64,000 nucleotides of DNA from an uncultured Methanosarcinaceae archaeon (GTDB lineage: Archaea > Halobacteriota > Methanosarcinia > Methanosarcinales > Methanosarcinaceae): the NCBI GenBank assembly GCA_963721455.1, contig CAVRJG010000052.1:162421-226420 (forward strand). Reading direction: 5' to 3'. Each line of letters begins with the position of its first letter. The first letter of the stretch is position 1. Positions 8,074 to 64,000 of this stretch are shown here, in pieces. The position numbers and the translations under genes were made by a program. The notes below the pieces were generated by a model that was given only the letters and a program-made list of their open reading frames with translations, did no database searches and was not told the origin of the DNA.

Positions 8074-8270
8074 AGTCTTTTTAATTTTTTCTGGTTTTTC
8101 TTCAATTTCGAAAAAATCATGAAATTTCATCGTAATTTGAGTAAACCAATTGACTCATTTTGGAAAAGTTGATTCATTCCTGCAAAATTTTATACAATTA
8201 TTCACTACGTTACTTATTTTTGTGGAAATTTTCATTAGCTACCGCTATAGGAATCCAAGTTTGGATTGAA

Positions 8271-9168
8271 TCCACTTTCCGCAGGTGCGACAAGAAGCTA
8301 TACTATGAATCGCGCCATTACGCTACCTCTTCCATTTGAGGTAATCCTATTGTGACATGCATAAATGGTAACGTTTGTGTGTGGAGCTTCACATGACAAT
8401 ATCAAGAAATCAAGGAGCCTGACTTTGATAATTGGTTAGGATAAGAATACTATGAAGAACGTAAAGTGAACCATCGTAAGAATCGTGAAGTGGGATAAGC
8501 GCAAAGCAGGTTGATGCGCTTAACCAAAAGGTACAGAATCGGGCTATAATGGGTCTGCGGACATTATGGCAAATGGACAAATGATTCTCGGTTTATAGAT
8601 GGCTTCTAAGGTATTCACATTATTTGTAGTATAGAACTTGGTAAGCCCTAAATGCTCCCATAATGGGTATGACTCCCGCGAGGGATAACGATGGCATTGA
8701 GGGTGAGAGGATTCAGTAAAAAGCGAATGCCAATCTGTAATGGATTGGACAGAGGTTCAAACTTTGCCTCAATCCGAAAGGATGCAGACTTACTGATGGT
8801 GTTTTTTTTTGTGTGAATGGAAACAAACCTACAAATGTAAGATACTCAACGACACCAATAGGTGAGAGGCTTACAGACAATTATGTTAGTGGGCTGTTAT
8901 CCGGAATCACAAAATCAGTTATGCAAATAACTGGTGCCTGATACAGAAAGGGTTTGAAAACACTCGAGCCGTATGAAGGGAAACTTTCAAGTACGGTTCC
9001 TAGGGGAGAAAGGAGGAGTAATCCTCCCTACTTACCCGACATGTACACAAGAATGCCACCGATTTTCCCTATCTGGCAGTCGTTCAAAAATTAACTCCTC
9101 ATTTGATAAGTTATTTTGGACAAGTCGGCAAATTAATTCTACATCTGTGTACATCTGCGGAATGTCGG
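8271..9168. mobile_element. IS1634-derived MITE (142 bp when intron-free) whose left TIR is interrupted by a group II intron
   Basis: Removing 8285-9040 joins TCCACTTTCCGCAG+ATGTACACA, which matches the reverse complement of 9146-9168 (CCGACATTCCGCAGATGTACACA) at 20/23; same core as the IS1634 ends at 11446, 13372 and 62964. Confidence 0.8.
8285..9040 (+). ncRNA. ORF-less group II intron, copy 1 (756 nt)
   Basis: 5' GTGCGAC; domain V GAGCCGTATGAAGGGAAACTTTCAAGTACGGTTC (8966-8999); domain VI hairpin ending CCGAC; EBS1 CTGCGG in a hairpin loop at 8555; EBS2 AAGTGG at 8488. Confidence 0.93.
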
Positions 9169-9295
9169 TTTTACACTGTACTTATCTATTTTCACAAACA
9201 GACTCATCGATTTAATTCCAAAATAATTATATGTTGCCTAGGTTATTTCGTAACCGGTCCTAAGTAAATTGAAATTGCCTCATCATCAAAAATAA

Positions 9296-10075
9296 TTAAT
9301 TTTTCAATTTTACATATACTGAAGTATCTTCGATCTTTGTTTCCAGAATCTCGTTGCATTCATTTTTTATAAGGTTCATCAATTTTTTATGACCATAGGT
9401 GCGGGGATCAAAGGAGGACTTTATTTTCTGAAGGTTCTGGTTTAGTAAGGAAAGGTGAATCCAACTGTCTGCAGTATCTGCCATTTCATAGGCTGTTCTG
9501 ATCAAGGAAAATAGCTCTTCCTTGTCGTTTATTCCCTGTTTTTCAGATGTTTCTATTATCTCATTCTCTTTCTCGTTTTCTGTAGGGTTCATCAGGTTTT
9601 CTACATACACAAAAAGTTCACAAGCATTGCTAAAAGCTTCAGGAGTCTGTTTTTTCCCTATTCCCATGACAAATTTGTTATCTTCCCTGAAACGGGTGGC
9701 AAGCCGGGTATAGTCACTGTCACTTGAGACGATTGCAATACCGTCTATGTTTCCTTTATGGAGAATGTCCATCGCATCTATTATCAGAGAACTGTCCGTT
9801 GAGTTCTTCCCAGTGGTATACGCAAATTGCTGTTGAGGTGTGATCGCCTTCTTGTGCAGGTATTGTTTCCAGGAACTCATTTGTTGGTTTGTCCAGTCTC
9901 CATAAATCCTTTTAACGGTTACGATCCCGTATTTTGAAACTTCTGTTAGAATCGGTTCTAAAGAATCAGGCTGAGCATTGTCTCCATCAATTAGGACGGC
10001 AATTTTCCGTTCAGTTATATGGTAGTAGTTTCCGCGCTCCTCTATCCAGGTTTTAGCACCTACTTCAGAACTCAT
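9296..10075 (-). CDS. NYN-domain (LabA/DUF88) protein with C-terminal OST-HTH/LOTUS domain
   Basis: AVLIDGDNA, RIYGDW, GKNSTDSSLIIDAMD, VSSDSDY and FDPRTYG motifs. Confidence 0.9.
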   Translation of the reverse strand: MSSEVGAKTWIEERGNYYHITERKIAVLIDGDNAQPDSLEPILTEVSKYGIVTVKRIYGDWTNQQMSSWKQYLHKKAITPQQQFAYTTGKNSTDSSLIIDAMDILHKGNIDGIAIVSSDSDYTRLATRFREDNKFVMGIGKKQTPEAFSNACELFVYVENLMNPTENEKENEIIETSEKQGINDKEELFSLIRTAYEMADTADSWIHLSLLNQNLQKIKSSFDPRTYGHKKLMNLIKNECNEILETKIEDTSVYVKLKN

Positions 10076-10197: not shown

Positions 10198-11445
10198 TCA
10201 ACTCAATGAGCTTTTTTCTCTAATGAGTTGAGCCAAAGATGGCATCTCAAATGTATTGCTCACTCTATCACATATGTACTGATATGCACTTATACTCAGT
10301 TTCTTTGCAGTCTGAACAATCGTCATAAATGTGTCGTTTGCCTTTGTCCCTTCATCTGTTATGGTTTGAAGGCTCACATCTCTTTTTCTAACCTTTGCTC
10401 TCGCCGCTAGTTCCGCTGCATTGTTATGCAGTGGAACTTCTGGTAAAACCAGTACTTTTAACAGATGTCCCTTGTTCTCTTTCGTCTTACCTATTCTTTC
10501 ATCCAACTGTTCATATCCTGTTATAGTCGAAAACAATTGATCAAACTTAATGGATAATTGCTCCGCTACCTCTGAATCTGGTTTTATTCTAAACTCACAA
10601 AGTTCCCCATAAAAGTCCCAGTACCTGTCCAGAAAAGCTTCCAGCTTTTCTTTAAAATAAGGTACTATTGGCCTCAATTTCTTGTAGTTTCTCCCATCAT
10701 GAATCCAACAAAGAGCATGATGTGATGCAATCTGCTTGAATTGACGTGCATCATCACTCAGAAGTGTGGTAACCACAGGTATGTCTGTACTTTGATGATA
10801 TGCCGCAATTGCACAGGCTTCAAGAACTTTCTTCTTAGTAGTTTTATACCCTTTGAGTGAGAAAACACAATCCAGTTTTCGACGCATTTCTTCATCACTG
10901 AATATTTTGTTTTTAAAAGAAGAGAGCTTTTCCATCCAGATTTGGGAAACATTAAACGTTTCCATCAGATCAAATGCTTCATCATTAAAGCAGTACGTTT
11001 TTTCTTTTCCACATAGAAGTATATCTAAAATGGTTTCCCTATTCTTATTGGGAACTGTAAAATAAGCAGCATAATAAGGATTACAAAGAATTTGAGTATA
11101 GTGATTGACACCATTGACTCTTGCACCTGTATCATCAATCTGCTGATAAGGCGTAGCCTTAAGACCCTCAAGAAAAATCTCAGCTTTTTCCTGATGGAAG
11201 ATATCAGTATCTTTTGTCAAAATTCGAGAAATAGTGGCTCTGGATATATGAACACCAATATTTTCCAGAAATTCATGTATTTTGGGCTCTGAAACATTAG
11301 CAACATGGTTAAGAGTGATTATAAGAGATTTGATTCCAGGGCCAAATTCACCTTTGATACCATGTGGCAATTCTCCTGAATATGTTTTATGCTCAGAAGG
11401 AGAATAAAATATCTCTATCCTGTAGTTGGTGTTCACAGGCTTTAT
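10198..11445 (-). pseudogene. IS66-like transposase, 5'-truncated by the adjacent IS1634
   Basis: QIDDTG, LLSDDA, LCWIH and PLHNNAAELAAR motifs; the frame runs up to the IS1634 TIR at 11446. Confidence 0.8.
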
Positions 11446-13372
11446 CAGACTTTCCGCATATCTCGGATTATTATTCAGACATTTTTATTGGAAAACTGTA
11501 AATAATGTAACTCGCTATTGAATTTTTGAATTTTTATGCACATTACTACTAACGCCCTGGACCATCACGGTATAGTTTGTGGAATTTTCGATGAACTTGA
11601 AATTGGAAGTATTATCGATGAAGTGTTTCCCAAAGTTGGGCAGCATAAGTTAGCTCATTCAATAGTGATAAAGGCAATGATTCTTAATTGCCTTGGATTC
11701 ACTGACAGTCGACTTTACCTGTACTCTCAATATTTCGAAAACCTTCCAGTTGAAAGGTTACTTGGTCCTGGAGTTAGTGCATCAGATCTTAATGACGATG
11801 TTTTAGGGCGAACTCTTGATAAGATATACGAAGTAGATCCTACTCAACTGTTCATGAAACTTTCCATGAGAATGATGGAAATTGTGAACCTTAAGGTTAT
11901 ACAACTTCATTGTGATGATACCAATTTCAGCGTTCATGGAGACTATGAACCTGAAGACGGTAGTTCTGCCATAGAACTCACTTATGGTCACGCGAAAGAT
12001 AAGAGATATGATTTGAAGCGTTTTTCAATGGGGATGATTGTAAACCAGTATGGTATGCCATTATTTACACAGGCTTATTCTGGAAATTCATCCGACAAAG
12101 AAACCATAGTAGAAGCCATGAAAAGACTTAAAGAAAACATAGAGTTCCCTGATGATGTTTATTTCATAGCTGATAGCTCTCTGTATTCTGAAGATAATAT
12201 CAAAGCATTAAAAGACATGAAATGGATCACTCGCGTTCCCTCAACTCTGAATCTTTGTAAAGAGCTACTGACTTCTGATCTTGAGTTTAAACAGGGAGAA
12301 GACCCACGCTACTCATTTTATGAAACGATGGTTGAATATGGTGGCATAAAACAAAAATGGATAGTTGTTCACTCTGCCGAGATGCATAAAAGAAAGGAAA
12401 TTACGTTTGAAAAGAAAATAAAAAAGATAGTCAAGGAAGCTCAGAAAGAGCTTAAAGAGCTGAAAAAAATAGAGTTTGCATGTGAAGAGGACGCAAGAAC
12501 AGCCCTGGAAAGATGGAAAAAGGAAAACCCTTACTGTTTGCTGGAAACGGTGGAGACCTCCACAATCTCAAAAAGAGAAAACGGTAAGAAGGGAAGGCCA
12601 AAAAAGGGTGAAAAGCTTGTCATTCATTATGTTGTAGATGCAAAGGCTATCAGAAATGAAGAAATCGTACAGCATGAAAATGAGTATCATGGTAGATTTA
12701 TAATCGGCAGCAGTGACCCCAATCTTGATGCTGACGATATGCTGGAAAAATACAAAAACCAGAGTAAAGTGGAAAAAGGATTCAGGTTCATAAAGGACAA
12801 AAGTTTCAGGGTTTCTGAGGTTTATCTTAAGAAACCCGAAAGAATTGAAGCGTTATCAATGATCATGGTTTTAACTCTGATGGTTTACTCGGTAGCAGAA
12901 TGGAAGCTGAGAGAAAAACTAAAAGAAACAGGGGAATCAATACCGAACCAAGTTAAGAAACAAACTCAAAAGCCGACATTGAAATGGGTTTTCATGCTGA
13001 TGAGGGGGATTACGGAAGTGGAAGTAAAAACGAAATCAAAAACTAAAATTCAAATTACCAACTTGGATGAAATTAAAGAGAAGTTAATAAGGTTGATGGG
13101 AAAGAGTTGTGAAAAATACTATTTTTGAGATGAGGGTATAAGCTCTTTAAATAAAATATTTCAAGGGTTTCAGATAGCACAAGTAGCGGATGCTGTTATA
13201 TAATTCAGGAAATACCAGTTATACAATTATGAAAAATATGGGCATAGTGACAAATTCAGTTTGTGCTGTGTTTAAGAATCAACTAACTTGCCATAACAAA
13301 GGTCAATTATTATTGAACAGTAAAATATGTAATAAAATAATTTTATTTTTGTGGACATTTGCGGAATGTCGG
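11446..13372 (+). mobile_element. IS1634-family insertion sequence
   Basis: Left TIR CAGACTTTCCGCATATCTC; right TIR GACATTTGCGGAATGTCGG; no matching TSD seen. Confidence 0.8.
11536..13128 (+). CDS. IS1634-family transposase (apparently intact, 530 aa)
   Basis: LDHHGIV, LNDDVLGRTLD, YGHAKD.R.DL, IADSSLY, VEKGFRFIK and KPTLKWVF motifs. Confidence 0.92.
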   Translation: MHITTNALDHHGIVCGIFDELEIGSIIDEVFPKVGQHKLAHSIVIKAMILNCLGFTDSRLYLYSQYFENLPVERLLGPGVSASDLNDDVLGRTLDKIYEVDPTQLFMKLSMRMMEIVNLKVIQLHCDDTNFSVHGDYEPEDGSSAIELTYGHAKDKRYDLKRFSMGMIVNQYGMPLFTQAYSGNSSDKETIVEAMKRLKENIEFPDDVYFIADSSLYSEDNIKALKDMKWITRVPSTLNLCKELLTSDLEFKQGEDPRYSFYETMVEYGGIKQKWIVVHSAEMHKRKEITFEKKIKKIVKEAQKELKELKKIEFACEEDARTALERWKKENPYCLLETVETSTISKRENGKKGRPKKGEKLVIHYVVDAKAIRNEEIVQHENEYHGRFIIGSSDPNLDADDMLEKYKNQSKVEKGFRFIKDKSFRVSEVYLKKPERIEALSMIMVLTLMVYSVAEWKLREKLKETGESIPNQVKKQTQKPTLKWVFMLMRGITEVEVKTKSKTKIQITNLDEIKEKLIRLMGKSCEKYYF

Positions 13373-15731: not shown

Positions 15732-16998
15732 GGCAGTGTACCGAAAGTTCTGTAAAATATGATTGACTCTGTATCCTTTTCTTTTCACCACAAAAAAACA
15801 GGATGCAGAGTCAATGGTTAATTTATTCTCACTTATAAAAGATTATCTTGTCGATCAGGAAGATGGAATTCGCCAGCTAATTACCTGGTTTTTAAACCTT
15901 ATAATGGAGGAGGAAGCCCTCCTCCAAGCTGGCGCACAACGTTATGAGCGGATTGATTCACGTAAAGCCAGTAGAAATGGCTACAAACCCCGAACTCTTC
16001 TGACCAAGCATGGAAAACTTGAATTGTCAAAGCCTCAATTCCGTGAGTTTCCCTTTGAAACCCAGGTTTTTGAGAAATATTCGAGAGTTGAAAAGGCCAT
16101 CTTAACCGCTATAGCGGAATCTTACCTTCAGGGTGTTTCCACCCGAAGGGTGGAAAAGATCATGATCGCTTTAGGAGTAGGTGAAATCTCAGCCTCTTCT
16201 GTTTCCAGGATTACTAAAGAACTGGATGAAAAGGTTGAAGAATTCCTCTCAAAACGAATAGAACATGAAATTCCTTACTTGTTATTGATGCGACTTATTT
16301 CAAGGTAAGAGATGGGCTTCATTATGAAAACAAAGCTCTCTTCGTAGTTGCTGGAATCAGGGATGACGGTTACCGAGAGATACTTGGAACAAGATTGGCA
16401 GACAGTGAAGCTTCTATGTTCTGGGAAGATCTATTCGAGGATCTGAAAGAAAGAGGGTTAAGAGGTGTCAAGTTAATCGTTTCTGATGGTCATAAAGGAA
16501 TACAGAAAGCAGTCAGAGAATCCTTTATTGGATCAAGTTGGCAGATGTGTCATGTACATCTGACAAGACAAGTTCTCAAGAAGGTGCCAAAAAAGAAGCA
16601 GAAAGAAGTGGCTGAGAAGATAAAAGAAGCATTAGTCGACCGTCAGAACTTGAATCACCTGATTAGGGAACTGGACAGTATGGGGTATAAAAGCGCAGCT
16701 GATACCCTTGAAAGTTTTCAATATGATGTAATGAACTATATGCAGTTTCCAGAAAAACACTGGAAAAAAATAAGGACAACAAATATGATGGAAAGGACTA
16801 ACAAGGAACTCAAAAGAAGAAGCAAGGTAGTTGGAGCATTTCCTAACCAGGACTCAGTATTGAGACTTGTAGTCTCAATACTAATTGATATAAATGAAGA
16901 CTGGATCACAGGAAACAAGTATATAGTAATGGAACAGTAATCAAAAAAGAAGACGAAGGGGTAGAGAGTAGATTTTACAGAAAATTAGGCACACTGCC
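15732..16998 (+). mobile_element. IS256-family IS, transposase split by a frameshift near 16280
   Basis: TIRs GGCAGTGTACCGAAAGTTCTGTAAAAT / ATTTTACAGAAAATTAGGCACACTGCC; RNGY, YLQGVSTR, VSDGHKG, WQMCHVH and TTNMMER motifs across two ORFs. Confidence 0.88.
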
Positions 16999-58803: not shown

Positions 58804-60248
58804 CATGCGTCATCGGTTAAGCATTAGATAATCACTTCTACATGCGTTTTTATAATAATAATTTAAATATTAGTGTATATATGTCTCCTCATCCCCCACC
58901 TACTCTTGAAGACTCTCTTCGGGAAATGTTTCCCGAAGAGTGGTTAAGGCAAACTGCCAAAGAAACTGGTCTCATAGTACGTGAGCGTAAAATTGACCCT
59001 GTCATCATCTTTTGGGTTTTAACTCTCAGTTTTGGTGTACGCTTGCAGCGTACACTTGCCAGTTTGAAAAGAGAATATGAAAAAGAATCAAATAAGACCC
59101 TAAGCGACAGCAGCTGGTACTATAGATTCACTCCAGAACTTGTGGAGTTTCTTCATCAGTGTGTTATTCATGGCATAGAAGAACTTGCAAAAGAACCCGG
59201 TAGAAAACTTAGTAAAAAACTCGAAAACTTCCAGGATGTTCTCATTCAGGACAGCACAATTGTTCGTCTTCACTCCTCTTTATCAGACAAGTTTCCGGCA
59301 GCAAGAGCAAGAACAGTAGCTGCTGGAGTAAAAGTGGGAGTTATGGTAAGTGCAGTTGCTAATGGACCTAAAACAGTTGCTCTGTACTCTGAAAAAACAG
59401 CTGAAATGAAAACATTGAAAATAGGGCCCTGGATCAAAGACCGTATTCTTCTTGTTGATCTTGGTTTTTACAAAAGCCAAATGTTTGCAAGAGTTGAGGA
59501 AAATGGAGGATATTTTGTCTCAAGAATTAGGAAGAATATGGATCCTATTCTTGTTTCTGTTGAAGAGGGACTTTCTAAGACAAAAAGCAAAGAGTTCACT
59601 GGAAAACCTGTTAGTGAGTGTATTAAGCAACTTTCAGGAAAAGATCTTGATGCTGTTGTGAAAATAAAGTTTAAAAGAAGAGCATACAAAGGCAAGCAAA
59701 AACAGGATGAGATGTGTGTACGTCTTGTTGCGGTATATAATGATGAAGATGAAAAGCACCACATATACATTACAAATATTCAGAAAGATGTTTTGAGTGC
59801 AAAAGACATTGCAAAATTATATGGAGCAAGATGGGACATAGAGCTGCTTTTCAAGGAGTTAAAAAGCAAATACGCGCTTGACGTTCTGGATACAAAGAAT
59901 GTGCAGGTAATTGAGGCTCTAATATGGACAGCAATGTTGACATTAATCGTTAGCAGAAGAATTTATTCTCTTGTAAAGAACAATGCGGCTCATCCTGAAA
60001 AAATGGTTCGATATACTCAAGAGAGATGGAGCATAATATTTGCTGAAAATGCATCAGATTTATTGACAGTGATTCTGCATAGATGTGGAATTGAAAGAAC
60101 TTTTGAAACAGTGATGAGTGTGTACGAAAGTCAAGCATTGGATCCACATGTAAACAGAGAAAGGTTCAGAGAAGAATGGTTAGAATGAAAAGATGAACTG
60201 AAAAACACTATTGGTAGATTGAAGTAAGTTCTTAACCGATGACCAATG
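58804..60248 (+). mobile_element. IS4-family (ISH8-like) IS, intact, 10-bp TSD
   Basis: TIRs CATGCGTCATCGGTTAAG / CTTAACCGATGACCAATG; TSD AACTTTAACT at 58794 and 60249. Confidence 0.93.
58881..60188 (+). CDS. IS4-family transposase
   Basis: IQDST, VDLGF and YGARWDIELLFKELK (YREK) motifs. Confidence 0.92.
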   Translation: MSPHPPPTLEDSLREMFPEEWLRQTAKETGLIVRERKIDPVIIFWVLTLSFGVRLQRTLASLKREYEKESNKTLSDSSWYYRFTPELVEFLHQCVIHGIEELAKEPGRKLSKKLENFQDVLIQDSTIVRLHSSLSDKFPAARARTVAAGVKVGVMVSAVANGPKTVALYSEKTAEMKTLKIGPWIKDRILLVDLGFYKSQMFARVEENGGYFVSRIRKNMDPILVSVEEGLSKTKSKEFTGKPVSECIKQLSGKDLDAVVKIKFKRRAYKGKQKQDEMCVRLVAVYNDEDEKHHIYITNIQKDVLSAKDIAKLYGARWDIELLFKELKSKYALDVLDTKNVQVIEALIWTAMLTLIVSRRIYSLVKNNAAHPEKMVRYTQERWSIIFAENASDLLTVILHRCGIERTFETVMSVYESQALDPHVNRERFREEWLE

Positions 60249-60509: not shown

Positions 60510-62964
60510 CCCACTTTCCGCAGGTGCGACAAGAAGCTATACTATGAATTGCACCATTCGCTACCTCTTCCATTTGAGGTAATCCTACTGTGACATGCAT
60601 AAATGGTAACATTTGTGTGTGAAGCTCACAGGACACTATCGAGAAATCAAGGAACCTGACTTTGGTAATCGGTTAGGATACGAATACTATGAAGAACATA
60701 AAGTGAACCATCGTAAGAATCGTGAAGTGGAATAAGCGAAAGCAGGCTGATACGCTTAACCAAAAGGTACAGAATCAGGCTGTAATGGGTCTGCGGACAT
60801 TATGGCAAATGGACAAATGATTCTCGGTTTATAGATGGCTTCTAAGGTATTCACATTATTCGTAGTATGGAACTTGGTAAGCCCTAAATGCTCCCATTAT
60901 GGGTAGGACTCCCGCGAGGGATAACGATGGCATTGAGGGTAGAGGATTCAGTAAAAAGCGAATGCCAATCTGTAATGGATTGGATAGAGGTTCAAACTTT
61001 GCCTCAATCCGAAAGGATGCAGACTTACTGATGGTGTTTTCTTGTGTGAATGGAAACAAACCTACAAATGTAAGATACTCAACGACACCAATAGGTGAGA
61101 GGCTTACAGACAATTATGTTAGTGGGCTGTTATCCGGAACACAAAATCAGTTATGCAAATAACTGGTGCCTGATACAGAAAGGGTTTGAAAACACTCGAG
61201 CCGTATGAAGGGAAACTTTCAAGTACGGTTCCTAGGGGAGAAAGGAGGAGTAATCCTCCCTACTTACCCGACATCTCCCCTTAAAAATAGTATTTTTCAC
61301 AATTTTTCCCCATCAACCTTATTATCTTTTCCTTAGTTTCATTTAAGTTTGCAACTTGAGTTACCACTTTTGAGTCAACATCCATTTTTACTTCTGTAAT
61401 TTCTCTCATCAGGATGAAAACCCATTTTAATGTTGGTTTTTGAGTTTGTTTTTTAATCTGGTTTGGTATTGTTTCCCCTGTTTCTCTTAACCTTTCTCTT
61501 AATTTCCATTCTGCCACAGAATAGACCATCAGAGTTAATACCATTACCATTGACAGTGCTTCAATTCGCTGAGGTTTTTTTACATACACCTCAGAGACCC
61601 TGAAACTTTTGTCCTTTATGAATCTGAACCCTTTTTCCACTTTACTCTGGTTTTTGTAGTGTTCCAGCATCTTTTCAGCATCAAGATTGAGGTCATTGCT
61701 TGCGATTATAAACCTCCCCTGATACTCTTTTTCATTCAGTGTAATTTCTTCATTCCTGACTGCTTTTGCATTTATAACATAGTGAACGATAAGCTTTTCA
61801 TCCTTCTTTGGCCGTCCTTTCTTCCCGTTTTCTCTTTTTGAGATCGTGGAAATCTCTGCTGTTTCCAGCAAACAGTACGGATTCTCATTCTTCCATCTTT
61901 CCAGAGCAGCTCTGGCATCCTCTTCACAGGCAAACTTTATCATCTTTAACTCTTTGAGATCTTTCTGAGATTCCGTAACCTTCCTCTGGATTTTCCTTTC
62001 AAAAGTAATATCCTTTCTTTTCTGCATCTCAGAAGAGTGAACAACTACCCATTTTTGTTCGATACCTCCATATTCAACAATAGTTTCGTAAAATGAATAA
62101 CGTGGATCCTCTCCTTTTTTGAACTCAAGATCAGATGCCAACAAATCTTTTGAAAGATTTAAGGTTGAAGGAACACGAGTGATCCATTTCATGCCTATTC
62201 CCATTGATTCTGATATTTCCGTCAGAGTATAGAGCACTATCAGCTATGTAGTAAACATCATCAGGGAACGTTATGTTTTCCTGAAGTTTTTTCATTGCCT
62301 CAATTATGGTTTCTTTGTCTGATGAATTACCAGAGTAAGCCTTTGCAAATAACGGGATTCCATACTGATTTGTTATTGTTCCAAGTCCAAAACGCTGCAG
62401 GTCGTCTCTACCGTCTTTTGCATGACCATATGTAATTTCAATGGCAGAACTACCATCGATATGTTTGTAGTCACCATAAACGCTAAAATTGGTAGTGTCA
62501 CAATGGAGGAGTTGAGTCCTGATGTTCACGATTTCCATCATTTTCAAGGCAAGTTTCATGAAAAGTTGAGTCGGATCTGCTCCATGGATCTCGTCAAGAG
62601 TCCTTCCTAAAACATCGTCATTAAGATCAGATGCACTGACTCCAGGACCAAGTAGTCTTTCAACTGGAAGAGTTTCAAAGTACTGAGAATACATGTAAAG
62701 GCGAATGTCAGTGAAACCAAGACAATTGAGAAGCATTGCTTTTACTACTATAGAATGAGCTAACTTGTGCTGCCCAAGTTTGGGCAGCACTTCGTCAATC
62801 ACTTTTCCAATTTCAAGTTCATCATAAATGCCAGAAACGATTCCGTGATGATCAAGAGAACGTGTTGTAACAAGCATAATAAAATCTAAATCAAGATTCG
62901 ATATTTTAGATATTTATACATTAATAAAAAAGGAAAAATTTGTCAGACATCTGCGGAAGGTCAG
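60510..62964 (-). mobile_element. IS1634-family IS with frameshifted transposase (62877-61281) and a group II intron in its downstream TIR
   Basis: End at 62964 reads CTGACCTTCCGCAGATGTC on the - strand; the other end rejoins as CCCACTTTCCGCAG+ATCTC after removing the intron; transposase paralogous to 11536 and split near 62210. Confidence 0.88.
60524..61272 (+). ncRNA. ORF-less group II intron, copy 2 (749 nt)
   Basis: Near-identical to 8285-9040; GTGCGAC start, domain V at 61198-61231, ends CCGAC; EBS2 at 60725, EBS1 at 60791. Confidence 0.93.
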
Positions 62965-63157: not shown

Positions 63158-64000
63158 ATAGTTCTTCACGGAACTAAATCCAAGCTTGGTAAGTACGGAT
63201 ATAGCAGGGATCATAGACCTGATAAGTTGCAGATAACAGTTGGAGTCAGTGAACTCAGAAAACCAATTAACATCCCTATTGGAATTACAGTTAATAGAGG
63301 AAACGTTCTTGATCTGCAACATTTTCCTGAGACTTATAACCAGGTAAAGAGAAATCTCAAAAAAGGATCTCTTATTGTCTTTGATAAAGGTGCAAATACA
63401 GTTGACAACATTAAGCTAATACAGGAAGATAAGATGACATATCTTACTTCCATGAAACTGAACGCAAGCGACGATAAAATCATTGAGAATTTTGATAAAG
63501 ATAAAGCAGAGCTAATAGATTCTGAAAAAAGTATTTATGGGATTAAGATCGTCAAGCCAAATAGCATTAAGTATTTTTATTTCTCAGAATCACTACAAGC
63601 GAAACAGTTGGAAGCAAAGGCAAGAACTGTTCTTAAGAAGTTACAGGAAGCAAAAGAGATACAAGAAATAATTGTTAAAAACAAAAAGCTTCCCAAGAAA
63701 TTCAGAATCAACAATGAGTTGATTGAGATTGACTACTCTTTTACAACTAAGCTCGAAGAGCTTAGTGATGATGAAGCAATAGAACTTCTGAAAAACTCGA
63801 TAATTAATGGAAGAGAAGGATTTTTCTGCCTTAAATCAAACAAGAATTTGACACTTGAGAAGGCATTAGAAATATATCGAGAGAAGGACTCTATCGAGAA
63901 AATATTCAACTCATTGAAAAACGAATTACAGATTAAGCCGTTAAGGGTTTGGTCAGATAATAGCATTTATGGAGCTGTTCTCTTAGGATTTATCCTACTT
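63158..64000 (+). pseudogene. IS1634-family transposase of a second subgroup, 5'-truncated at the IS630 end and running off the window
   Basis: Open frame with GKYGYSRDHRPDK, VFDKGAN and YREKDSIEKIFNSLK. Confidence 0.8.

What the first reader, a model, noticed from the sequence alone, without database searches (positions are those of the whole stretch)
8271..9168. ORF-less group II intron programmed to home into IS1634 terminal inverted repeats (site 1: inside a MITE)
Seen: the intron (8285-9040) sits between TCCACTTTCCGCAG and ATGTACACA. Rejoined, these form one TIR of a 142-bp MITE whose other TIR is 9146-9168. The intron EBS1 loop (CTGCGG, 8555, inside the stem GCTATAATG/CATTATGGC) pairs with IBS1 CCGCAG. 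EBS2 (AAGTGG, 8488) pairs with IBS2 CCACTT. Known: EBS/IBS pairing sets group II intron target choice, and ORF-less introns are reported in Methanosarcina. Inference: this is a non-autonomous retroelement whose target is a multicopy transposon end, here inside a second non-autonomous element. It would need an RT in trans to move, and the IS would keep creating fresh neutral target sites. I do not know of TIR-specific homing being described for these introns, but I cannot check the literature here.
Basis: partly seen in the sequence, partly recalled or inferred. Interest (0 to 1): 0.88.

Follow-up and report, generated by a model that had tools for sequence, protein, structure and literature searches.

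The report
Intron that homes into transposon tips
A small self-splicing intron with no gene of its own sits exactly 14 bases inside the end of a miniature transposon in a Methanosarcina genome, because its guide sequences match the tips of one transposon family; this habit is already known from a bacterial intron, so it is a good new example and not a new principle.

Summary
Window 8285-9040 is a complete 756-nt ORF-less group II intron. It lies 14 nt inside the left tip of a 142-bp MITE (8271-8284 plus 9041-9168).

EBS1, EBS2 and a candidate EBS3 pair with the flanking exons. They co-vary with the exons across four intron lineages in this genome.

Of 18 group II intron signatures in the genome:
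- 13 lie exactly 14 nt inside tips of IS1634-family elements or MITEs with the same inverted repeat.
- 1 lies about 23 nt inside an IS256-family repeat.
- 1 lies inside an IS6 transposase gene.
- 2 have tip-like 14-mers but no recognisable host element.
- 1 is an orphan D5/D6.

Seven copies are 100% identical yet sit in different host elements, which indicates a recent burst. Nine of the 12 fully pairable genomic sites are occupied. Three intact RT-encoding relatives without an endonuclease domain could act in trans.

The tip-to-intron junction occurs in 20 of 59 genomes of the genus.

Homing into IS inverted repeats is already published for bacterial RmInt2/ISRm17. Trans-mobilised ORF-less derivatives are published for Thermosynechococcus. 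This is therefore an archaeal, MITE-hosted, non-autonomous variant of a known strategy. Splicing and mobility remain untested.

The parts
8271..8284 (+). Outermost 14 nt of the left inverted repeat of the MITE. This is the 5' exon holding IBS2 (CCACTT) and IBS1 (TCCGCAG).
   Evidence: The tip position is set by paralogues with target-site duplications.
8285..9040 (+). ORF-less group II intron, 756 nt, an older sequence variant. It differs at 31 positions from the 7 identical burst copies.
8488..8493 (+). EBS2 (AAGTGG)
   Evidence: Pairs 6 of 6 with IBS2. It co-varies as AAGCAG/CTGCTT in the RT introns and AAGTCA/TGACTT in L036.
8555..8561 (+). EBS1 (CTGCGGA) in a hairpin loop
   Evidence: Pairs 7 of 7 with IBS1 in all 16 copies, across three different EBS1 sequences. 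Hairpin fold.
8596..8596 (+). Candidate EBS3 (U), pairing with the first 3' exon base (A)
   Evidence: T with +1 A in 10 of 11 copies and C with +1 G in 5 of 5. The position is inferred from covariation only.
8964..9040 (+). Domains V and VI
   Evidence: RF00029, 63.5 bits. Fold z = -3.8.
9041..9168 (+). Rest of the 142-bp MITE (3' exon). The right inverted repeat is 9146-9168.
60510..62964 (-). IS1634-family element, 1706 bp without the intron, with a frameshifted transposase (61281-62237 and 62131-62877). Tips are at 60510-60523 and 62951-62964.
60524..61272 (+). Second ORF-less intron copy (burst variant, 749 nt), 14 nt inside the transposase-distal tip of that IS
11446..13185 (+). Intact IS1634-family element with no intron (transposase 11536-13128). 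Its left tip is CAGACTTTCCGCAT, with T at -1.
   Evidence: NF033559, 404 bits. Ends taken from comparison with the C53 copy.
15732..15754 (+). Empty left inverted repeat of an IS256-family element. This is the target type of the divergent C49 intron lineage.
   Evidence: with the flanks.

Best explanation
Window 8285-9040 is a non-autonomous (ORF-deleted) group II intron of the chloroplast-like IIB type. It entered its present place by retrohoming, that is, reverse splicing into DNA guided by EBS1, EBS2 and EBS3. The roughly 14-nt sequence these guides recognise is the outermost 14 nt of the terminal inverted repeat shared by IS1634-family elements and their MITE derivatives. The intron therefore always lands 14 nt in from a transposon tip and reads inwards. 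Reverse transcription and probably splicing are supplied in trans by the RT/maturase of related full-length introns in the same genome. Transposition of the IS and MITEs keeps making new, harmless target sites. The insertion splits the inverted repeat and probably immobilises that end. Shown: anatomy, pairings, covariation, site distribution, recent copies and presence of RT donors. Inferred: the retrohoming mechanism, trans-mobilisation and the effect on the transposon.
For: Anatomy. The element has a GTGCG 5' end, D1 and D5/D6 Rfam hits, and no ORF.

Pairing. EBS1-IBS1 pairs 7 of 7 in 16 of 16 copies, across three EBS1 sequences (CTGCGGA, CTGCCGA, TACAGAA). EBS2-IBS2 is fully pairable, counting G-U, in 12 of 16. 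The candidate EBS3 fits in 15 of 16.

Host elements. Intron-free paralogues begin about 14 nt upstream of the insertion point at 14 of 16 sites. MITE families A, B, C and E have 5-6-bp target-site duplications that place the tip exactly 14 nt before the site. Intron-bearing MITEs keep their duplications: ATATTA on C71 and TTTTAT on C15.

IS family. Full-length elements with the same tips encode IS1634-family transposases (NF033559, 404 bits).

Recent activity. Seven copies are identical over 749 nt and an eighth differs by 1 nt, yet they sit in different host elements.

Occupancy. Of 639 TCCGCAG sites in the genome, 12 have a fully pairable IBS2 and 9 of these carry the intron. None of the 37 sites with five pairable positions is occupied, and 2 of the 123 with four are.

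RT donors. Three 2.1-kb relatives have intact 497-aa ORFs with RVT_N, RVT_1 and GIIM (TIGR04416, 353.7 bits, cut-off 300) and no HNH hit. The ORF-less form aligns to them at nt 1-588 and 639-732, so about 1.4 kb of domain IV is missing.

Other genomes. The tip-to-intron junction is in 20 of 59 genus genomes, with 0 hits for the reversed control pattern. The sequence upstream of -14 is unrelated between sites. MITE-like 3' exons are seen in 3 of the 4 loci where the intron end was found.
Against: No experiment or read evidence shows splicing or mobility, and no spliced junction was seen.

The window MITE copy and the window IS copy lack target-site duplications.

Two burst copies (C13:38664 and C8:87562) have tip-like 14-mers but no recognisable host element. 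Retrotransposition to chance look-alike sites therefore also happens, or those hosts have decayed.

The C71 and C44 copies sit at a tip with only 4 of 6 IBS2 pairs.

A sharp end of conservation at -14 is also what RNA guides alone would give. The transposon-tip reading rests on the paralogues and duplications, not on that boundary.

The RT-encoding introns are only 84% identical to the ORF-less form in D1-D3 and 71% in D5/D6. Whether their protein is the driver is not shown.
Confidence: 0.85

Rival explanations
1. The intron did not choose these sites. It is a passenger that was copied when intron-bearing MITEs or IS elements transposed, or when segments were duplicated.
For: C71 and C44 share 99% identical flanks, and so do C25 and C12. 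Some copies therefore are duplications, or alleles, of one locus.
Against: The 7 identical copies lie in different hosts: an IS1634 element, MITE-A, a MITE-A-like end (65-68% identity), MITE-E, and two sites with no recognised host. No intron-bearing MITE is found at two loci with different flanks. The C71 and C44 introns differ at 22 positions although their flanks are the same.
Confidence: 0.04
2. The link with transposon tips is chance. The genome is full of small repeats, and the intron simply retrotransposes to any roughly 14-nt look-alike in intergenic DNA.
For: Two sites have no host element. The genome holds very many small repeats.
Against: The offset is the same (14 nt) at 13 sites in at least six element families. 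Four families have duplications that fix the tip. Related lineages with other EBS sequences sit at the matching tip variants. The same junction recurs in 19 other genomes of the genus.
Confidence: 0.04
3. This particular copy (8285-9040) is a dead relic of an older wave that no longer splices or moves. Only the 749-nt burst variant is active. This is compatible with the main explanation for how it got there.
For: It differs at 31 positions from the burst copies, and only the C71 copy is close to it, with 9 differences.
Against: D5/D6 score the same as in the burst copies (63.5 bits). EBS1 and EBS2 pair perfectly with its own exons, and the 5' and 3' ends are intact.
Confidence: 0.3
4. The introns are kept because they disable transposon ends. 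In this reading they are a host-beneficial brake on the IS1634/MITE family and not purely selfish elements.
For: The insertion separates the outer 14 nt from the rest of the repeat. Nine of 12 best-matching tips are occupied. The only intact, recently duplicated IS1634 copies (99.6% identical transposases) have a tip with a mismatch to EBS1 at -1.
Against: There is no test of transposition with or without the intron. The sister tip family is mostly unoccupied, with 3 of 20 fully pairable sites filled. A selfish safe-haven strategy explains the same data.
Confidence: 0.1

Closest known systems
RmInt2 of Sinorhizobium meliloti GR4, which homes into the inverted repeats of ISRm17 (Molina-Sanchez et al. 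2014, PMC4615759; passages read)
   Same: The group II intron homing site lies within an IS inverted repeat, with the IBS region at -14 to +1. The IEP has no endonuclease domain. The stated rationale is the same: a multicopy, non-essential target with a potential site at each end. Head-to-tail copies are discussed there, and one head-to-tail joint was seen here in a metagenome contig.
   Different: RmInt2 is bacterial, class D and autonomous, and its host is a full IS. Here the host is an archaeon and the nearest solved RT is the chloroplast-like TeI4h protein (6ME0_C, E 1.4e-151). The main proliferating form is ORF-less, many hosts are MITEs, and several lineages track different tip variants.
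Thermosynechococcus elongatus TeI3/TeI4 introns (Mohr et al. 2010, PMC2882425; passages read)
   Same: The RT is closely related. The ORF-less derivatives were made by a roughly 1.5-kb deletion in domain IV and mobilised in trans. Target specificity diverged through EBS changes. One family sits at a conserved site in an IS (ISEL1, IS200 family). There are several identical copies.
   Different: In the passages read, the targets are intron ORFs, an IS body and intergenic sites, not inverted-repeat tips. The system is thermophilic and bacterial. MITEs are not mentioned in those passages.
Methanosarcina acetivorans and M. mazei group II introns (Dai & Zimmerly 2003, RNA 9:14; text not held, known only from the title and the summary in PMC4424553)
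   Same: Same genus, with ORF-less and RT-encoding introns and site-specific homing. [quoted passage not shown]
   Different: The published emphasis is on homing into related intron ORFs (nested twintrons). I could not check whether the outer exons were recognised as IS or MITE tips.
Class C (IIC) introns at terminators and attC sites (summary in PMC4424553)
   Same: Retroelements that choose a repeated, non-coding DNA motif made of an inverted repeat.
   Different: IIC introns read a stem-loop structure with a short IBS. Here recognition is by about 14 nt of base pairing, and the intron is IIB-like (the three solved group II RTs after 6ME0_C score far lower).

Membership tests
Group II intron (ribozyme) | Domain V/VI and domain I matching curated covariance models | tested here: met
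   RF00029 scores 63.5 bits (cut-off 40) and RF02012 scores 63.1 bits (cut-off 34). D5/D6 fold z = -3.8.
Group II intron (ribozyme) | Consensus boundaries (5' GUGYG, 3' AY) and EBS1/EBS2 pairing with the 5' exon | tested here: met
   The intron starts GTGCG and ends GAC. EBS1 pairs 7 of 7 and EBS2 6 of 6 at this copy, with covariation across lineages. The consensus boundaries themselves are recalled.
Group II intron (ribozyme) | Self-splicing or protein-assisted splicing | not testable with these tools
   Only contigs of public runs could be laid, and no spliced joint was seen. This is not evidence of absence.
ORF-less (non-autonomous) derivative of an RT-encoding intron | No RT ORF, with domain IV deleted relative to a full-length relative | tested here: met
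   No ORF of 60 aa or more lies inside the intron. It aligns to the 2143-nt RT intron at nt 1-588 and 639-732 only.
MITE | Small, non-coding, multicopy, with terminal inverted repeats and target-site duplications | tested here: met
   It is 142 bp with a 17-nt exact inverted repeat. Paralogues are on C15, C16, C45, C39 and C59. A duplication (CTATAA) is seen at the C15 paralogue but not at the window copy.
IS1634 family (host and source of the inverted repeat) | Transposase matching the family model | tested here: met
   NF033559 scores 404.4 bits (cut-off 100) for window 11536-13128. The interrupted copy at 61281-62877 carries DUF4277 and DDE_Tnp_1.
IS1634 family (host and source of the inverted repeat) | The same tips on the full-length IS as on the MITEs, with 5-6-bp duplications (the typical family size is recalled from ISfinder, not checked) | tested here: met
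   The IS on C30 and C13 has tips CCTAC(T/A)TTCGGCAG with duplications TTATT and ATAAGG. The window IS has tips CCCACTTTCCGCAG and CTGACCTTCCGCAG.
Inverted-repeat-homing introns of the RmInt2 type | Homing site inside the IS inverted repeat | tested here: met
   13 of 18 intron signatures lie 14 nt inside IS1634-type tips and 1 lies inside an IS256-type repeat.
Inverted-repeat-homing introns of the RmInt2 type | Same intron lineage (bacterial class D) | tested here: inconclusive
   No class phylogeny was made. The best solved relative of the RT is the TeI4h maturase (6ME0_C, E 1.4e-151), far above the others, which points to the chloroplast-like class. It works like RmInt2 but is probably not of that lineage.
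Inverted-repeat-homing introns of the RmInt2 type | Demonstrated retrohoming into the repeat | not testable with these tools
   This needs a donor and recipient mobility assay.

The most novel reading that the evidence does not exclude
The introns and the IS1634/MITE family are in an arms race. Intron lineages retune EBS1, EBS2 and EBS3 to follow tip variants: CCCACT, CTGACT or CTGCTT for IBS2, and TCCGCAG or TCGGCAG for IBS1. Each insertion cripples a transposon end. Only tip variants that mismatch the guides stay mobile, such as the intact IS with T at -1. On this reading the retroelement is a hyperparasite that shapes which DNA transposons survive in Methanosarcina.
Probability: 0.25. Interest if true: 0.7.

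Novelty: new variant of a known kind. Interest (0 to 1): 0.5.

Why it matters
This gives a clear natural example, in an archaeon, of one class of mobile element (a retroelement guided by RNA base pairing) living on another (DNA transposons and their miniature derivatives). The guide and target covariation can be read directly from genomes. The flanking exons of Methanosarcina introns look non-coding, and this suggests why: they are transposon tips. The system can be tested for trans-mobilisation of ORF-less introns, for target-site saturation, and for whether intron insertion blocks transposition. It does not change the known principles of group II intron mobility.

Tried and rejected
Reads. 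Twenty of the 24 listed runs hold part of the stretch, but none holds half of the sampled words, and all four laid runs were contigs. No contig joined 8284 to 9041, so there is no evidence for or against splicing. One contig from an RNA library (X3, record 22, 8751-9089) bridges the 3' splice site. That could be precursor RNA, DNA carry-over or a relative, since matches were accepted from 90% likeness. The flanks around 8155-8256 had no cover.

Orthologous empty site. The right flank, 9169-9900, has no orthologue in 58 other genus genomes. Only a roughly 96-bp repeat matched, so an intron-free allele of this exact locus could not be found. Only paralogous empty elements were found.

Idea that the cut transposon end primes cDNA synthesis. 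I rejected this on geometry. The 3'-OH at a tip lies upstream of the insertion point, so it cannot prime on the 3' exon side. This is reasoning only.

Literature.
- Dai & Zimmerly 2003 (PMC1370365) and PMC1847376, the id I recalled for Filee et al. 2007, are not held.
- Searches, and passages, gave no description of archaeal homing into inverted repeats.
- This covers only the held library. Supplements are closed, and Figure S1 of PMC4615759, which shows the ISRm17 sites, was not seen.

Other points.
- One search was an unfinished script with no output.
- One search used mis-set regular expressions for EBS1 and EBS2. Its table is superseded.
- In one search, EBS motifs could not be extracted from many of the 22 loci from other genomes ('None' rows). 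Those rows were not used.
- Target-site duplications were read by eye from printed flanks.
- No class phylogeny of the RT was made.

Full report
WHAT IS THERE

Window 8285-9040 starts GTGCGAC and ends CCCGAC. Rfam places domains V and VI at 8964-9040 (RF00029, 63.5 bits against a cut-off of 40). It places a domain I model at 8324-8435 (RF02012, 63.1 bits against 34). The same pair of hits recurs at 60562-60711 and 61196-61272, which marks a second copy at 60524-61272. No ORF of 60 aa or more lies inside the intron.

The 14 bases before the intron (8271-8284) and the 128 bases after it (9041-9168) together form a 142-bp element. Its right end, 9146-9168, is the inverted repeat of the rejoined left end, with 17 consecutive matching bases. 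Intron-free paralogues of 142-144 bp on C15, C16, C45 and C39 run uninterrupted across the insertion point.

THE GUIDE SEQUENCES

The whole genome is 3.94 Mb in 73 contigs, and the window is C52:162421-226420. In it the intron has these relatives:
- 13 full-length ORF-less copies and one 166-nt fragment.
- Three 2.1-kb relatives that carry an ORF.

I aligned the first 420 nt of all 16 and read their flanks. From this I extracted EBS1, EBS2 and a candidate EBS3.

EBS1 pairs 7 of 7 with the last seven exon bases in all 16 copies, although three different EBS1 sequences occur:
- CTGCGGA with TCCGCAG.
- CTGCCGA with TCGGCAG.
- TACAGAA with TTCTGTA.

EBS2 pairs at all six positions, counting G-U, in 12 of 16 copies. 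AAGTGG goes with CCACTT and AAGCAG with CTGCTT. In another genome (L036), AAGTCA goes with TGACTT.

One position, window 8596, is T where the first 3' exon base is A (10 of 11 copies) and C where it is G (5 of 5). That fits an EBS3-IBS3 pair, but this assignment rests on covariation alone. The EBS1 hairpin and D5/D6 fold better than shuffled sequence, with z of -3.3 and -3.8.

THE TARGETS ARE TRANSPOSON TIPS

I joined the flanks of each copy in a script and compared them with the genome. At 14 of 16 sites, intron-free paralogues span the insertion point and begin about 14 nt upstream of it. For the C49 copy they begin about 23 nt upstream.

Several element families have target-site duplications that fix the tip 14 nt before the insertion point:
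- MITE-A, about 250 bp: four empty copies with 6-bp duplications AAACAT, TTCTAA, ATGAAA and CTCGCT.
- MITE-C, about 240 bp: ten empty copies listed, at least seven with 6-bp duplications.
- MITE-B: CTATAA at the C15 copy.
- MITE-E on C51: CAAAT.

Two intron-bearing MITEs still have their duplications, ATATTA on C71 and TTTTAT on C15.

Full-length elements with the same tips encode IS1634-family transposases:
- Window 11536-13128 scores 404 bits on NF033559.
- The copy at window 60510-62964 has DUF4277 and DDE_Tnp_1 in two frameshifted pieces. It carries the second intron 14 nt inside its transposase-distal tip.
- A 46% identical group on C30, C13 and C67 has tips CCTAC(T/A)TTCGGCAG and duplications TTATT and ATAAGG. 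The C25 and C12 introns lie 14 nt inside the right tip of this type.

The C49 lineage lies in the inverted repeat of an IS256-family element. An empty copy of that repeat is at window 15732-15754, in front of Transposase_mut ORFs. Relatives in two other genomes have the same 5' exon type.

TALLY

RF00029 finds 18 signatures in the genome:
- 13 lie 14 nt inside IS1634-type tips.
- 1 lies inside an IS256-type repeat.
- 2 (C13:38664 and C8:87562) have tip-like 14-mers but no recognisable host element.
- 1 is a 2111-nt RT intron on C35, inside an IS6-family transposase gene and antisense to it.
- 1 is an orphan D5/D6 behind a decarboxylase gene on C45.

RECENT ACTIVITY AND SATURATION

Seven ORF-less copies are identical over 749 nt and an eighth differs at one base. 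Their hosts differ: an IS1634 element, MITE-A, a MITE-A-like end, MITE-E, MITE-B and two sites with no recognised host. The window copy at 8285 is an older variant, with 31 differences from the burst copies and 9 from the C71 copy.

Of 639 TCCGCAG sites on both strands, occupancy follows IBS2 pairing:
- Fully pairable IBS2: 12 sites, 9 occupied.
- Five pairable positions: 37 sites, 0 occupied.
- Four pairable positions: 123 sites, 2 occupied (the C71 and C44 pair).

The three empty perfect sites (C8:84749, C51:3552, C67:11623) are followed by sequence of the MITE-tip type; C51:3552 is the tip of MITE-E. For the RT-encoding lineage, only 3 of 20 fully pairable sites are occupied.

SOURCE OF THE PROTEIN

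The three 2.1-kb introns (C15 twice and C19) have intact 497-aa ORFs with RVT_N, RVT_1 and GIIM. They score 353.7 bits on TIGR04416 against a cut-off of 300, and there is no HNH or endonuclease hit. The best solved relative is the maturase of 6ME0 (E 1.4e-151), which I recall as the Thermosynechococcus TeI4h protein.

The ORF-less intron aligns to these introns at nt 1-588 (83.7% identity) and 639-732 (71%). It lacks about 1.4 kb of domain IV but keeps the start of the ORF region. That these proteins mobilise it is an inference.

OTHER GENOMES

- Related intron DNA is found in 27 of 41 sampled relatives.
- The 18-nt tip-to-intron junction, allowing one mismatch, is found in 20 of 59 genomes of the genus. 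The reversed control pattern gives no hits.
- In the 27 junctions I read, the 14 nt before the intron follow the tip pattern and the sequence further upstream is unrelated between sites.
- In the 4 loci where the intron end lay within the locus, 3 have 3' exons like MITE-A or MITE-B.
- An exact 22-mer of the junction occurs in 15 stretches of records titled Methanosarcina or Methanosarcinaceae.

WHAT IS KNOWN

- Group II introns commonly sit in mobile DNA.
- RmInt2 of Sinorhizobium meliloti is reported to lie only within the inverted repeats of ISRm17, with its IBS region at -14 to +1 taken from the repeat. The authors discuss the doubling of sites and head-to-tail copies (PMC4615759, passages).
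- In Thermosynechococcus, ORF-less derivatives made by a roughly 1.5-kb domain IV deletion are mobilised in trans. Target specificities diverge, and one family sits at a conserved site in an IS200-family element (PMC2882425, passages).
[quoted passage not shown] The original paper is not held.

I found no description of archaeal homing into inverted repeats in the searches. Subscription papers and supplements were out of reach.

VERDICT

The principle is already published for bacteria. What is new here:
- The setting is archaeal.
- The intron is non-autonomous and sits inside a non-autonomous transposon.
- The guides coincide exactly with the outermost 14 nt of the repeat.
- Several lineages track tip variants of two IS families.
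- The matching tips are close to saturated.

Splicing, mobility and the effect on transposition remain untested.

Noticed in passing
window 9040 joined to 8285 (run X1): One contig of a sediment metagenome run, probably DNA, joins the intron's last base to its first base. This could be a head-to-tail tandem or a circular form. No such tandem exists in this genome.
   Followed up: no
G000 C71:27080-27830 and C44:153636-154384: The two loci have 99% identical flanks (400 nt upstream, about 230 nt downstream), but their introns differ at 22 positions. Possible causes are independent homing into duplicated MITEs, intron replacement, or two strains in the assembly.
   Followed up: partly
window 11446-13185 and G000 C53:19780-21540 (approx.): The only intact IS1634 copies have 99.6% identical transposases. 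Their left tip has T instead of G at the position that pairs with the first base of EBS1, and their right end barely resembles the left. This may be an escape variant.
   Followed up: partly
G000 C35:15037-17147: A 2111-nt RT-encoding group II intron with a 499-aa ORF containing YADD lies inside an IS6-family transposase gene, antisense to it. Intron-free copies of that IS are on C54, C36, C48 and C19.
   Followed up: partly
G000 C45:33112-33186: An orphan domain V/VI signature (57.7 bits) lies about 70 nt downstream of a thiamine-pyrophosphate decarboxylase gene on the same strand. No domain I and no RT are nearby.
   Followed up: partly
window 9169-9265: The roughly 96 bp next to the MITE are themselves a repeat, with copies on C49, C21 and C41 and in two other genus genomes. 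The intron-bearing MITE therefore sits in a nest of small repeats.
   Followed up: no
G000 C59:1380-2600: About 384 bp are duplicated. The duplicated unit includes the 5' exon tip and the first 166 nt of the intron, and it precedes the full copy.
   Followed up: no
window 10198-11436, 15763-16940, 58842-60188, 63227-64000: The window holds further transposase genes: an IS66 family gene, an IS256 family gene split into two ORFs, and two DDE_Tnp_1 genes. The window is rich in mobile DNA.
   Followed up: no
G000, many contigs (e.g. C3:105293-105567, C16:7091-7365): A MITE of about 275 bp has tips CCTACTTTCGGCAG on both ends in at least 14 copies, none occupied. It has one A-C mismatch to EBS2 of the RT-encoding introns.
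   Followed up: no
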